From assembly GCA_020696385.1 (NCBI GenBank), contig JAEHCQ010000011.1, forward strand, positions 1 to 14,149: a stretch of 14,149 bases of DNA, given 5' to 3'. The stretch is from Methanobacteriota archaeon. Lineage in GTDB: Archaea > Thermoplasmatota > Thermoplasmata > SG8-5 > JAGLSY01. How positions within the stretch are numbered: the stretch's first letter is position 1; every line of letters begins with the position of its first letter. A model generated the notes under the pieces. It saw nothing but the letters and a program-made list of their open reading frames with translations, made no database searches and had not been told where the DNA came from. Made by a program: the position numbers and the translations under genes. This document shows positions 12,144 through 14,149 of the stretch, piece by piece.

Positions 12144-12203
12144 TCACGCCTTTATCATTATCAGCGACATTTTGAACTTGGTTATAGAATCAAGAGCATG
12201 TGG
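12144..12203 (-). repeat. Distal displaced copy of the cupin 3' end (19 codons + stop)
   Basis: Encodes PHALDSITKFKMSLIMIKA*, identical to the gene. 8 nucleotide differences from 12613-12672, all silent, including TAA->TGA. Confidence 0.92.
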
Positions 12204-12301
12204 CTGCGTTTTTTTCTTTTAAGGCCTTCTGTGCTGGCCAGGCTCCAAAAGAAAAAAATGCCGTTAAATAAGAAAACTCGCCTGGCATGCTCGAAGGCCA
12301 A
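12204..12301 (-). other. Structured repeat element, copy E3
   Basis: Outer stem ggccttc (12223-12229)/gaaggcc (12293-12299), inner stem gccaggc (12237-12243)/gcctggc (12280-12286). Highly similar to 13620-13711. Strand is inferred. Confidence 0.8.
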
Positions 12302-12304
12302 TAC

Positions 12305-12392
12305 GTGCTTACGCCTTTATCATTATCAGCGACATCTTGAATCTTGTTATAGAATCAAGAGCATGCGGTTTATTCGCTGGCATCATCAGCAT
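12305..12392 (-). repeat. Proximal displaced copy of the cupin 3' end (27 codons + stop + 4 nt)
   Basis: Encodes MLMMPANKPHALDSITRFKMSLIMIKA*. 9 differences from 12609-12696: 7 synonymous, plus L->M and K->R. Confidence 0.92.
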
Positions 12393-12605
12393 CCCCTCGG
12401 AAGCCTTTTCTTTTATTGATTTCTGCGCTAGCTCGGGCTCTTGAATCAAGCAAGCTTGACAAAATAGATGCGCAAAATCGCGCATCTAAAAAAGAACAAG
12501 GTTTCTAATATCGAATCAAGCCCATTTCATGTGCTTGATAAAATAGATGCATGGACTATGTCCACATCTAAAAAAGAAAAATCGCCCTCACCTGCTCGAA
12601 ATCAA
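12393..12605 (-). other. Structured repeat element, copy E2 (expanded by two double-hairpin modules)
   Basis: Outer stem ttgatttc (12416-12423)/gaaatcaa (12598-12605). Shares cccc.c.gaagccttttctttt, aaaagaacaaggtttctaat and tgctcgaa with E1. Confidence 0.78.
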
Positions 12606-12612
12606 AGTGTGC

Positions 12613-12951
12613 TTACGCCTTTATCATGATAAGCGACATCTTGAATTTGGTTATCGAATCAAGCGCATGCGGTTTATTTGCTGGCATCAGCAACATTTCG
12701 CCTTTCTTCACAATGAACTTCTCGCCATCAATAGTGATCTCAACTTCCCCATCGAGTATGTGCGCCAGTGCGTCATAAGGCGAAGTGTGCTCGCTCAGCC
12801 CTTGCCCCATGTCAAAGGCGAACAGTGTAATCATTCCCTGGTCCTTCTCGACCAGGGTTCTGCTCACAATAGAGCCATCCTGGTATTTCAGCATCTCTTC
12901 AAGGTTCCAGACCTCTGTATTTTCTCCCAATGTATCTACCTCCGGTTTCAA
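12613..12951 (-). CDS. Cupin domain protein
   Basis: YQDGSIVSRTL, TLFAFDMGQGLSEHTSPYDA, GEMLLMPANKPHAL. TTG start 2 nt after the HMA gene's stop. Confidence 0.9.
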   Translation of the reverse strand: MKPEVDTLGENTEVWNLEEMLKYQDGSIVSRTLVEKDQGMITLFAFDMGQGLSEHTSPYDALAHILDGEVEITIDGEKFIVKKGEMLLMPANKPHALDSITKFKMSLIMIKA

Positions 12952-12953
12952 AA

Positions 12954-13187
12954 TTATACTACAATGGCCTCATAGCCAGCTTCTCTCACGGTCTTGATAA
13001 GAGTGCCATTGGAAACTGCGTCTTCCTTTTTCAATGTGACAATAGCTTTCTTATCTTCAAGACTTACCTCGGCTTTCTTAACGCCAGATGTCTTTTCTAA
13101 AGCCTCTGTCACACGCTTCACGCAGTGTCCGCATGTCATTCCCTCTACCTTCATTTCAATTACTGGTTTCTTCCCAAACATACCCAT
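12954..13187 (-). CDS. Heavy-metal-associated (HMA, CopZ-like) chaperone
   Basis: VEGMTCGHCVKRV...EAGY; GGTGA upstream. Confidence 0.9.
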   Translation of the reverse strand: MGMFGKKPVIEMKVEGMTCGHCVKRVTEALEKTSGVKKAEVSLEDKKAIVTLKKEDAVSNGTLIKTVREAGYEAIVV

Positions 13188-13258
13188 TTACTTCACCATG
13201 ATGTAGAGAGTGTGGAGAGGGCTTAAAGGTATTCCCATTTTTTTGTTTTATAGAAAGA

Positions 13259-13477
13259 TTGACCTCCCCGCCCTTTGGACGGGGCTTCGAATATCAGAGC
13301 ACTCTGTGACTGTCACTCGAACATTCATTGAATATAGTACCCCGCCCGCACAAAGAGATGAATCAAATACTTCAATATGATTTAGTCAATAGCCGTATTA
13401 GATTTTCTGGTCGCGTACAATTGAACATATAATACGCTACCAGAAACACTGTGTTTAGACGGGGCATGCTCGAATGT
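13259..13477 (-). mobile_element. Putative non-autonomous IS200/IS605-end-like palindromic element
   Basis: Minus strand ends ...GAAGCCCCGTCC-AAA-GGGCGGGGAGGTCAA, a subterminal hairpin followed by TCAA as at IS608-type right ends. A second GCCCCGTC...GGGCGGGG arm pair lies at 13458-13465/13340-13347. No ORF. Family assignment is from resemblance only. Confidence 0.5.
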
Positions 13478-13496
13478 ATATGCTTTGTTGATAAAT

Positions 13497-13606
13497 GCAC
13501 TGCTCGAAGGTCAACCCCACTAGCTCAGTCCGACAATATTTCCATCAGCATCCATGTCAATGAATTCAGCCGCTGGCTTCCTCGGTAATCCTGGCATCGT
13601 CATTAT
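13497..13606 (-). repeat. Displaced copy of the fhs 3' end (28 codons + stop + 23 nt)
   Basis: 110-bp direct repeat of 13694-13803 (offset 197) with 5 mismatches (13583, 13586, 13588, 13589, 13592), all synonymous. Confidence 0.95.
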
Positions 13607-13711
13607 CCCCCCAGAAGCCTTTTCTTTTTGGACCTTCTCCGCTGGCCAGGCTCCAAAAGAACAAGGTTTCTAATCCAAAAGAAAACTCGCCTGGCACTGC
13701 TCGAAGGTCAA
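13607..13711 (-). other. Structured repeat element, copy E1
   Basis: Outer stem gaccttc (13631-13637)/gaaggtc (13703-13709), inner stem gccaggc (13645-13651)/gcctggc (13689-13695). Confidence 0.8.
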
Positions 13712-13716
13712 CCCCA

Positions 13717-14149
13717 CTAGCTCAGTCCGACAATATTTCCATCAGCATCCATGTCAATGAATTCAGCCGCTGGCTTCCTTGGAAGACCAGGCATCGTCAT
13801 TATTTCTCCGGCTATCGGAATAACAAAGCCAGCTCCAGCACTTAGACGAACCTGTCTGATGTACAGCTCGAAGCCTTCAGGTGCTCCCAGGAGCTTTTTA
13901 TTGTCAGAGAAAGAATACTGGGTCTTGGCAACGCACAATGGCAGATCACGGTATCCCATGGCCTCCCATTTTTTGATGTCCTTTTTGGCCTCAGGCGAGA
14001 AAACAACAGATTCCGCCCGATATATCTTCTTGGCCAGGATATTCATTTTTTCTTTAATTCCCATCTCCAGAGGATAGGCATAGTCTGGCTTCTTTTCGCC
14101 ACCCTTTGTCTTTGCCGTAATGGCTTCTGCAAGGGCCAGTCCTCCCTCC
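13717..14149 (-). CDS. fhs: Formate--tetrahydrofolate ligase, C-terminal part (5' end outside the window)
   Basis: [39 protein letters not shown] motifs. The frame stays open upstream of 14064 to the edge (EGGLALAEAITAK...YPLE). Confidence 0.95.
   Translation of the reverse strand, partial: EGGLALAEAITAKTKGGEKKPDYAYPLEMGIKEKMNILAKKIYRAESVVFSPEAKKDIKKWEAMGYRDLPLCVAKTQYSFSDNKKLLGAPEGFELYIRQVRLSAGAGFVIPIAGEIMTMPGLPRKPAAEFIDMDADGNIVGLS

What the first reader, a model, noticed from the sequence alone, without database searches (positions are those of the whole stretch)
12377..13809. Junctions in two unrelated genes fall at the same position of a shared motif
Seen: cupin GGCGAA|ATGTTGCTGATGCCAG (12702-12681) and fhs GGAGAA|ATAATGACGATGCCTG (13809-13788) match at 16/22 positions, and both duplications start at the bar. 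The displaced copies match each other at 13/16 (ATGCTGATGATGCCAG vs ATAATGACGATGCCAG). Both follow the same element end, GGCTTC(C/T)G(A/G)GGGG. E3 has a different end (AAAACGCAG) and a different junction. TGCCAG also forms the inner-stem arm of E1 and E3. Inference: target choice is sequence-specific and may use base pairing or microhomology with the element.
Basis: partly seen in the sequence, partly recalled or inferred. Interest (0 to 1): 0.78.

Follow-up and report, generated by a model that had tools for sequence, protein, structure and literature searches.

The report
Hairpin elements duplicating archaeal gene ends
Two neighbouring genes of an uncultured sediment archaeon each carry a small gene-less hairpin element followed by a pushed-aside spare copy of the gene's end, and although their two junctions look alike, dozens of sister insertions show only a loose preference for G-rich patches and no shared target motif.

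Summary
A 16/22 match is rare by chance (about 2.5e-5 per pair).

It is not a general target.
- Among 26 junctions of the same element family in this genome, mean pairwise similarity equals chance and the next best pair is 12/22.
- In 37 to 43 junctions, including relatives, nothing is conserved upstream of the junction. Only the first 8 duplicated bases are G/purine-rich.
- Where the element's right end is shortened, the gene carries on the missing end (49/103 positions against 27 expected). That is microhomology.
- Element stems do not co-vary with targets.

The family is a roughly 90-base covarying hairpin (41 distinct copies). It sits at gene ends flanked by 17-318 bp duplications (27 of 35 copies).

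A congener has both sites empty. The two tail copies differ almost only synonymously (65:12), even for changes private to the displaced copy (32:3). So they are alleles brought together by recombination between lineages.

The scan has met the same kind of thing before in DPANN, Asgard and soil archaea.

The parts
12613..12951 (-). Cupin gene (112 aa), intact, ending in tail copy A
   Evidence: ORF list. Pfam Cupin_2, 2.3e-12, covering residues 44-110.
12609..12696 (-). Cupin tail copy A (in the gene): last 27 codons, the stop and 4 nt
   Evidence: Repeat family D1. Junction alignment.
12393..12608 (-). 216-nt element plus 8-nt spacer. Left motif TTCGAGCAGG at 12591-12600, two nested hairpin modules, right end ...AAAAGAAAAGGCTTCCGAGGGG at 12393-12414
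   Evidence: Its modules recur at many loci in the genome.
12305..12392 (-). Cupin tail copy B (first displaced copy), 90% identical to A, with 7 synonymous and 2 non-synonymous codon differences
12204..12304 (-). Third element with its spacer. Left end TTCGAGCATGCCAGGCGAG, right end ...AAAAGAAAAAAACGCAG, joined at a different point of the tail
12146..12203 (-). Cupin tail copy C: the original tail, still followed by the native downstream DNA and the promoter-like TTTATATATA
   Evidence: Its downstream flank is orthologous to the single-tail locus of congener G002.
13717..14149 (-). 3' part of the formate-tetrahydrofolate ligase gene (fhs). It runs off the window and ends in tail copy A
   Evidence: Pfam FTHFS, 8e-50, profile positions 414-556 of 556. 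G002 orthologue is 92% identical up to the stop.
13694..13803 (-). fhs tail copy A: last 28 codons, the stop, and 23 nt that include the element's left motif TTCGAGCAGTGC
   Evidence: Repeat D2.
13607..13693 (-). 87-nt element between the two fhs tails, with stem arms GCCAGGC/GCCTGGC and right end ...AAAAGAAAAGGCTTCTGGGGGG
   Evidence: It is one row of the 41-copy family alignment.
13497..13606 (-). fhs tail copy B (displaced). It has 5 nt differences from A, all synonymous and all 15-24 nt from the junction
13240..13496 (-). A second, different repeat (TTCGAGCATGCCCCGTC ... GACGGGGC) between the displaced fhs tail and the HMA gene. It is absent at this site in G002

Best explanation
The two junctions are two of about 30 insertions in this genome of a lineage-restricted, gene-less hairpin element of roughly 90 nt. 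Its layout is: left motif CGAGCGAGCAGG, a stem arm, T-tracts, the matching stem arm, CCAGCRCAGCGAGG, then a single-stranded-looking 3' tail TTAAAAGAAAAGGCTT[CCGNGGGG].

Every insertion has the same architecture: gene body, tail A, stop, a 0-53 nt spacer, the element, tail B, then the native flank.

Step 1 (inferred). When a copy enters a new site, its G-rich right (3') end pairs with a partly matching G/purine-rich patch some 17-318 nt upstream of the point of entry. The gene end is then copied a second time, by microhomology-primed synthesis or template switching. This is a small-scale version of 'insertion with long target duplication'. It would explain the variably trimmed right end, the microhomology there, and the continuous spread of duplication lengths.

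Step 2 (inferred). Only events in which tail A still reaches the stop codon leave the gene working, so those are the ones seen.

Step 3. The cassette then spreads among related lineages by ordinary homologous recombination, with crossovers inside the gene and the tails, and the two copies convert each other. As a result the two tails are different functional alleles. The allelic nature of the tails is shown; the route is inferred.

On this reading the shared motif splits in two. Its left part (GGNGAA) may be the purine-rich patch that met the element's G-run; across the whole junction set that stretch (-8..-1) shows no G-enrichment (0.28 against 0.26, p 0.23), so this part of the reading is weak. 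The similarity of the next 16 bases reflects two look-alike conserved peptide motifs (G-E-h-h-x-M-P). It is mostly coincidence, with at most a weak extra liking for ATGCC about one helical turn inside.
For: Family and architecture:
- 27 of 35 elements have a flanking duplication of 17-318 bp that starts 0-10 nt after the right motif. Two of the 27 are weak. One further element has the repeat offset by 82 nt, and 7 have none.
- The same architecture is seen in G002 and in G001, G003, G014 and G020.
- 41 distinct copies of about 90 nt have compensatory stem pairs. For example, columns 17/60 read GC 30, CG 10, TA 1, and columns 16/61 read GC 23, AT 13.

Insertions are real and lineage-specific:
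- G002 has single-tail, element-free cupin and fhs loci, and empty sites at 9 further loci: C3, C11_577, C11_662, C33_1, C33_161, C33_252, C44_146, C46_100, C49_55.
- Copy B is followed by the native flank. Copy A is followed by a unique spacer that is unlike the native flank in 17 of 18 cases.

Right junction: microhomology at 49/103 positions against 27.3 expected, G-rich first 8 bases, and right-end lengths that vary from GGCTT to GGCTTCCGGGGGAC.

Alleles, not decay:
- 65 synonymous against 12 non-synonymous codon differences in 12 pairs (p 1e-19 or less).
- Changes private to the displaced copy: 32 against 3.
- Differences are enriched in the outer 40% of the repeat: 59/113, p 0.003-0.006.
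- At sites where A and B differ, G002 sides with A 47 times, with B 33 times and with neither 18 times.

Conversion: at C33:175513 the displaced copy in this genome has gained the spacer and left motif, which its G002 orthologue lacks. The fhs repeat shows the same pattern.

No general target motif.
Against: - Step 1 is inferred from junction statistics only. No intermediate, enzyme or polymorphic population was seen.
- The model does not explain why homology between the two tails stops at the stop codon (-13 to +2 nt) in nearly all loci. It also stops at the T-run after tRNAs and at the promoter edge in a 5'-end case. Selection sets only the lower bound.
- The cupin/fhs pair remains a statistical outlier (about 0.008 after correction).
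- ATGCC at +9..+13 recurs in 4 of 41 independent junctions. A pure microhomology model does not predict this.
- Across the 37 junctions the 8 bases before the bar are not G-rich (0.28 against 0.26, p 0.23), so the GGNGAA part of the reading is not a general rule.
- All genomes are metagenome bins. The structures could not be checked against reads.
Confidence: 0.45

Rival explanations
1. Guided, sequence-specific insertion. A transposase, for instance the genome's single IS200-type Y1 (HUH) enzyme, would read the target by pairing it with a guide in or beside the element's hairpin, as IS608 does. The element would then enter at a defined motif such as GGNGAA|AT..TG..GATGCCNG.
For: - The 16/22 match is unlikely by chance.
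- GATGC starts at +9/+10 in 4 of 43 junctions and ATGCC at +9..+13 in 6 of 43.
- One Y1_Tnp gene is present.
- The element is a covarying hairpin, like IS200/IS605 ends and REPs.
Against: - There is no consensus at -10..-1 and only weak purine bias after the bar in 37 junctions.
- Pairwise similarity of junctions equals chance.
- There is no co-variation of target with the element's own stem or left region.
- Both element ends vary in length, whereas HUH cleavage is precise, and IS200/IS605 elements make no target duplication (the latter is recalled; PATEs and IS605-type elements 'do not cause TDs' in PMC3119063, passages).
- The Y1 gene lies next to an element only in this genome, out of 11 Y1 loci looked at.
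Confidence: 0.12
2. Site-specific integration of att type. A circular cassette (tail + spacer + element) would be integrated by a tyrosine recombinase acting in trans. This is how integrative elements enter the 3' ends of tRNA or protein genes while carrying a replacement end.
For: - The architecture is that of attL/attR with a regenerated gene end.
- tRNA 3' ends are also targets (C11:632501, C44:62155).
- The tails are foreign alleles.
- There are four integrase-family hits in the genome.
- Recombination between the two tails would release exactly such a circle.
Against: - More than 25 different genes are hit, with no shared core at the junctions.
- The right end is trimmed to different lengths.
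- The elements carry no integrase.
- Duplication length varies continuously from 17 to 318 bp.
Confidence: 0.15
3. A transposase makes a long, variable target duplication (as described for IS1634/IS1549-type DDE elements; recalled). The element would be their MITE, and the displaced copy would simply decay.
For: - Variable 17-318 bp direct repeats flank a small element with imperfect inverted T-tract/A-tract ends.
Against: - No DDE_Tnp_1 gene was found in a 94% complete genome.
- Displaced copies do not decay neutrally: 32 synonymous against 3 non-synonymous private changes.
- The ends vary in length and show microhomology.
Confidence: 0.08
4. The cupin/fhs resemblance is coincidence. Two unrelated conserved peptide motifs (cupin [27 protein letters not shown]) happen to be encoded alike, and each happened to receive an insertion at its start.
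For: - No other junction pair resembles these two.
- The fhs 23-mer pattern is conserved in at least 114 unrelated metagenome stretches without any element.
- Both sequences lie inside Pfam domains.
Against: - About 0.008 expected after correction for all 325 pairs.
- The two bars fall at the same codon of the look-alike motif.
- ATGCC recurs near +10 in other junctions.
Confidence: 0.3

Closest known systems
Insertion with long (variable) target duplication. Nobusato et al. 2000 was seen only as a reference entry; Furuta, Abe & Kobayashi 2010 (PMC2853133) was read as passages.
   Same: An insert with no transposase of its own is flanked by direct repeats of tens to hundreds of bp that are single-copy in the empty allele. 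The length varies from event to event. The repeats often overlap the 3' end of a gene. The mechanism is unknown.
   Different: There the cargo is restriction-modification genes of several kb, in bacteria, as single events per genome. No archaeal case survived their screen (passage). Here the insert is a 90-220 nt non-coding hairpin family with about 30 events in one archaeal genome. It shows measurable microhomology at one end, and its tail copies are different alleles.
REP / REPIN elements with their RAYT (bioRxiv 10.1101/2021.07.10.451892 and PMC6006769, read as passages)
   Same: A non-coding hairpin of about 100 nt built of two inverted arms with a variable middle. It is extragenic, sits just behind genes, has tens of copies and is inherited within a lineage. 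The genome holds a single-copy Y1 HUH transposase gene.
   Different: REPINs are said not to have been detected in archaea (passage), and I know of no report that they duplicate gene ends (recalled). The Y1 protein here ends in Y-I-A-V-Q. That is the Y---Q pattern given for the IS200 subclass, which is the only subclass reported in archaea (passage). It is not flanked by elements in relatives.
Integrative elements in the 3' ends of tRNA or protein genes (att sites with a regenerated gene end; the icd/e14 type; recalled)
   Same: Gene body, new end, element, displaced old end. tRNA 3' ends are among the targets, and successive insertions stack up, as at the cupin gene.
   Different: There is no integrase in the element, no common core, dozens of unrelated targets and variable junction positions.
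Carboxy-terminal duplications made by mobile ORFs, GC clusters or double-hairpin elements in fungal mitochondrial genes (recalled; also named in earlier scan notes)
   Same: A mobile insert brings a foreign copy of the gene's last codons and pushes the resident end downstream. The copies differ mainly at silent sites.
   Different: Those inserts usually carry or depend on a homing endonuclease with a defined cleavage site. Here no nuclease and no defined site were found.

Membership tests
Insertion with long target duplication | Direct repeats longer than 30 bp flank the insert and are single-copy in an empty allele of a related genome | tested here: met
   G002 has single tails at cupin and fhs and at 9 further loci. 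The repeats here are 58-110 bp.
Insertion with long target duplication | Repeat length varies between events, and the insert has no mobility gene | tested here: met
   17-318 bp in 27 events. The inserts are 87-216 nt and non-coding.
Insertion with long target duplication | The cargo is a restriction-modification gene unit | tested here: not met
   The insert is a hairpin repeat without an ORF.
REPIN-RAYT | A hairpin of about 100 nt made of two inverted arms, kept by compensatory change | tested here: met
   41 distinct copies. Stem columns show GC/CG/AT/TA exchanges with 38-41 of 41 paired.
REPIN-RAYT | A single-copy RAYT-class Y1 transposase flanked by its repeats | tested here: inconclusive
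   One Y1_Tnp, single in most genomes of the order. It has an element nearby only in this genome, 1 of 11 loci. Its Y-I-A-V-Q end points to the IS200 subclass (passage).
IS200/IS605-type (incl. PATE) | Insertion 3' of a fixed 4-5 nt target, so the left flank is conserved, and no target duplication | tested here: not met
   There is no information at -10..-1, the spacers before the left motif are variable, and long duplications are present.
IS1634/IS1549-type DDE elements | A DDE (IS4-family) transposase in the genome | tested here: not met
   PF01609 gives 0 matches in the 94% complete genome, while 9 of the 14 control genomes give a match.
Tyrosine-integrase att integration | A common core sequence at all junctions and a cognate integrase | tested here: not met
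   No shared core. The integrase homologues are not linked to the elements (linkage was not examined in detail).

The most novel reading that the evidence does not exclude
The elements may be a so far undescribed kind of archaeal mobile DNA, a 'gene-end cassette'. This is a REPIN-like hairpin that needs no transposase-made cut at a fixed site.

It would travel together with a spare copy of its host gene's end, so it can sit inside essential genes without harm. It would move between lineages by homologous recombination through that spare end. It would reach new genes when the sequence beside a donor copy (right end plus the first bases of the old host's tail) finds a look-alike patch in another gene.

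The cupin and fhs junctions lie 1.1 kb apart and share 33 of 40 bases across the right end plus the first 16 tail bases (my own count on the sequences). They would then be a donor-recipient pair caught in the act. The ATGCC signal would be a trace of the same flank-guided choice.
Probability: 0.2. Interest if true: 0.8.

Novelty: new variant of a known kind. Interest (0 to 1): 0.55.

Why it matters
How DNA gets inserted with long target duplications has been open since it was described for restriction-modification genes in 2000. This genome, with a near-complete congener whose sites are mostly empty, offers more than 40 junctions of one small element family. That is enough to show microhomology at one end and recombination between lineages. 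It turns a handful of anecdotes into a data set on which models can be tested.

It would also be the first REPIN-like hairpin family described in archaea, if the passage still holds.

For annotation, the displaced tails look like small conserved ORFs or pseudogenes and should be recognised as scars.

The specific claim of a shared target motif is weak, however, and should not be carried forward as a target site.

Tried and rejected
- In-situ duplication followed by neutral decay of the displaced copy: rejected by the 32:3 synonymous bias of its private changes.
- An RNA or reverse-transcription origin of the new tail: no RT gene (PF00078). The tRNA-linked copies carry the T-run trailer and no CCA. 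In the 5'-end case C46:41025 the repeat runs 38 nt upstream of the start codon (my reading: it covers the TATA-like box, so untranscribed DNA).
- TnpB-guided homing: no PF07282.
- Casposase: no Cas1.
- DDE transposase: no PF01609.
- Known RNA family: Rfam gives only a chance hit, E 0.55.
- Spacers as native 3' flank: 17 of 18 are not similar. One (C33:161208) is, with p 0.004.
- Pairing between stem and target: negative.
- Public sequencing runs for the region: none was listed.
- Metagenome scan with the fhs junction pattern: only unrelated fhs genes came back (at most 72% identity over the tail), and 0 of 80 fetched loci hold an element motif.
- Genome-collection scan with the cupin tail pattern: 0 matches.
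- A strict element pattern found 7 stretches in 3 deposited bins, labelled Thermoplasmata, Methanobacteriota and Methanomassiliicoccales.
- Whether GATGC at +9 marks a type IIS-like cut was considered but not tested.
- Literature searches gave no description of gene-end-duplicating hairpin elements in archaea. These are word searches of an open-access library only.
Full report
**What is in the window.**
All genes of the region lie on the minus strand.
- The cupin gene (12613-12951; Cupin_2) ends in a tail that occurs three times: 12609-12696, 12305-12392 and 12146-12203. The copies are separated by a 216-nt and a roughly 100-nt non-coding insert.
- The fhs gene (stop at 13717; FTHFS to the last profile position) ends in a tail that occurs twice: 13694-13803 and 13497-13606. 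An 87-nt insert lies between the copies.

**The sites are insertions.**
A genome of the same genus (G002, 92% identical in fhs) has both genes with a single tail and no insert. fhs, the HMA gene and the cupin gene follow each other directly there. The most distal cupin tail and the displaced fhs tail are followed by DNA orthologous to G002's native flank. The in-gene copies are followed by a unique spacer and the element.

**The family.**
- Self-comparison of the 2.28 Mb genome and motif pairing found 35 elements. Of these, 27 have a flanking direct repeat of 17-318 bp that begins 0-10 nt after the right-end motif and ends 0-53 nt before the left motif. Two of the 27 are weak. One more has the repeat offset by 82 nt, and 7 have none.
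- By my reading, most repeats are the 3' ends of protein genes on the element's top strand. Three involve tRNA 3' ends and two involve gene 5' ends.
- The basic unit is about 90 nt. 41 distinct copies from this genome and relatives align end to end and keep a long hairpin by compensatory changes. Longer copies hold nested hairpin modules.
- The exact 14-nt right end occurs 21 times here, 10 and 11 times in two congeners, 4 times in G002, once in each of three other genomes, and in none of the remaining 15 genomes of the order. The reversed control gives 0-1.
- A strict pattern over 185,579 species genomes found 7 stretches in 3 bins, labelled Thermoplasmata, Methanobacteriota and Methanomassiliicoccales.
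- Earlier notes of this scan call the organism an uncultured sediment Thermoplasmata.

**Is there a target motif?**
- For random in-frame 22-mers from gene ends, P(>=16/22) is 2.5e-5. The cupin/fhs pair therefore stands out even among all 325 pairs of 26 junctions, where about 0.008 would be expected.
- It stands alone. The next best pairs reach 12, the mean is 5.72 against 5.88 expected, and 3 pairs reach 12 or more against 2.15 expected.
- With 37 junctions (26 from this genome, 4 from G002, 7 from G001/G003/G020), no position from -10 to -1 carries information. Positions +3 and +5 are purine-rich and poor in C (p <= 0.0003; p 0.013 for the maximum over all positions). The first 8 duplicated bases are G-rich (0.35 against 0.26).
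- Six more junctions brought no new case of the motif. One pair of the 43 (from G001 and G003) is probably the same ancestral insertion.

**Microhomology.**
The right end is present in different lengths, from GGCTT to GGCTTCCGGGGGAC. In 21 junctions with a shortened end, the gene continues the missing consensus at 49 of 103 positions (27.3 +/- 4.4 expected; 0 of 10,000 draws reach 49). The first base fits in 14 of 21.

**No pairing with the stem.**
- Targets share no longer words with their own element than with others: 6.0 against 5.97, p 0.46.
- An in-register comparison with the left region gives p 0.32, and with the stem arm p 0.19.
- TGCCAG in the stems of two of the three local elements is thus not part of a general rule.

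**A residual signal.**
ATGCC starts 9-13 nt inside the duplication in 6 of 43 junctions. Without the two discovery junctions it is 4 of 41, against 0.27 expected. The position window was chosen after seeing the data. A blind scan of all 4-mers gives counts of this size in 57% of random sets. I leave it open.

**The shared 22-mer is coding.**
It encodes G-E-(M/I)-(L/M)-(L/T)-M-P in both proteins. The fhs part is conserved at the DNA level in at least 114 unrelated metagenome stretches, and none of the 80 fetched loci carries element motifs. The cupin part looks like the second cupin motif (recalled). Much of the resemblance is therefore a resemblance of two conserved peptide motifs.

**The two tails are alleles.**
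- In 12 pairs, 65 codon differences are synonymous and 12 are not. The expected synonymous share is 0.21, or 0.34 if only the displaced copy were free (p 1e-33 and 1e-19).
- With G002 as outgroup, changes private to the displaced copy are 32:3, those private to the in-gene copy 21:4, and the unresolved ones 14:4.
- A dead copy cannot collect such changes. The two copies must have evolved as working gene ends in different lineages and were then brought together.
- Neither copy is regularly nearer to G002: 47, 33 and 18 sites for A, B and neither.
- Differences pile up near both ends of the repeat: 59 of 113 in the outer 40% (p 0.003-0.006). Import of the whole cassette by two crossovers inside the tails would give this pattern.
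- Four insertions are shared with G002 at the same junction. At one of them, the displaced copy in this genome has taken over the spacer and left motif. This shows conversion between the copies, and it explains why the fhs repeat includes the left motif.

**Enzymes.**
- In the 94% complete genome I found no reverse transcriptase, TnpB, Cas1 or DDE_Tnp_1.
- There are four integrase-family hits and one IS200-type Y1 transposase.
- The Y1 transposase's own tail, together with a downstream tRNA, is duplicated around an element (318 bp, 81% identity).
- The Y1 gene is single-copy in most genomes of the order. It has an element beside it in only 1 of 11 loci, so the link is weak.

**Unexplained.**
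- Homology between the tails ends at the stop codon (-13 to +2 nt) in nearly all protein-gene loci.
- The spacers are not native flank in 17 of 18 cases.
- Import from lineages with unalignable intergenic DNA would explain this, but short, identical repeats fit it poorly.

**Comparison with what is known.**
- The nearest described phenomenon is 'insertion with long target duplication' of restriction-modification genes in bacteria (PMC2853133, passages).
- The nearest element type is the REPIN, said not to have been found in archaea (bioRxiv 10.1101/2021.07.10.451892, passage).
- Haloarchaeal PATEs and SMRs make no target duplications (PMC3119063, passages).
- Earlier notes of this scan report hairpin inserts with displaced, silently differing gene tails in DPANN, Asgard and soil archaea. 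I used these notes as leads only.

**Verdict.**
The claimed target motif is not general. Microhomology with the element's right end is general. The larger phenomenon is a new variant of a known but unexplained kind of insertion.

Noticed in passing
window 13240-13496: A second repeat family (starts TTCGAGCATGCCCCGTC, ends GACGGGGC-like) lies between the displaced fhs tail and the HMA gene. It is absent here in G002 but has similar pieces elsewhere in G002. Elements of the main family have inserted into its end at other loci (C11:636866, L155).
   Followed up: partly
G000 contig C50:1231-2396 (locus L132): The genome's only Y1 (IS200-type) transposase gene has its own last 20 codons, an intergenic conserved stretch and a tRNA duplicated (318 bp, 81% identity) around an element. 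The displaced transposase tail keeps an open frame with conservative changes.
   Followed up: partly
L148 (G020), L166 (G001), L167 (G003): The same orthologous gene (tail ...NGKWL(P)K*) carries an element in three genomes. The junction in G020 lies 12 nt away from the one in G001/G003. This is either recurrent insertion into one gene end or a shifted junction.
   Followed up: no
G000 contig C11:662595-662864: A 5'-end case. The repeat covers the first roughly 50 coding bases of a minus-strand gene, and the unique spacer next to the attached copy supplies a TATA-like box.
   Followed up: no
native flanks after displaced tails (C49:55117 region, C3:2612 region, G002 C22:239225 region): Several native downstream flanks hold fragments resembling the element's left motif (CCGAGCGArC...). 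They may be scars of earlier occupancy of the same sites.
   Followed up: no
G000 contig C11:83,500-132,900: Very long arrays of a diverged 249-bp (83-codon) repeat, i.e. one or more giant repetitive genes.
   Followed up: no
window 12420-12580: Two copies of a hairpin module (TTTTAGATG...CATCTATTTT) are nested in the 216-nt element. The same module recurs inside other elements and seems to be the double-hairpin repeat noted earlier in this genome.
   Followed up: no
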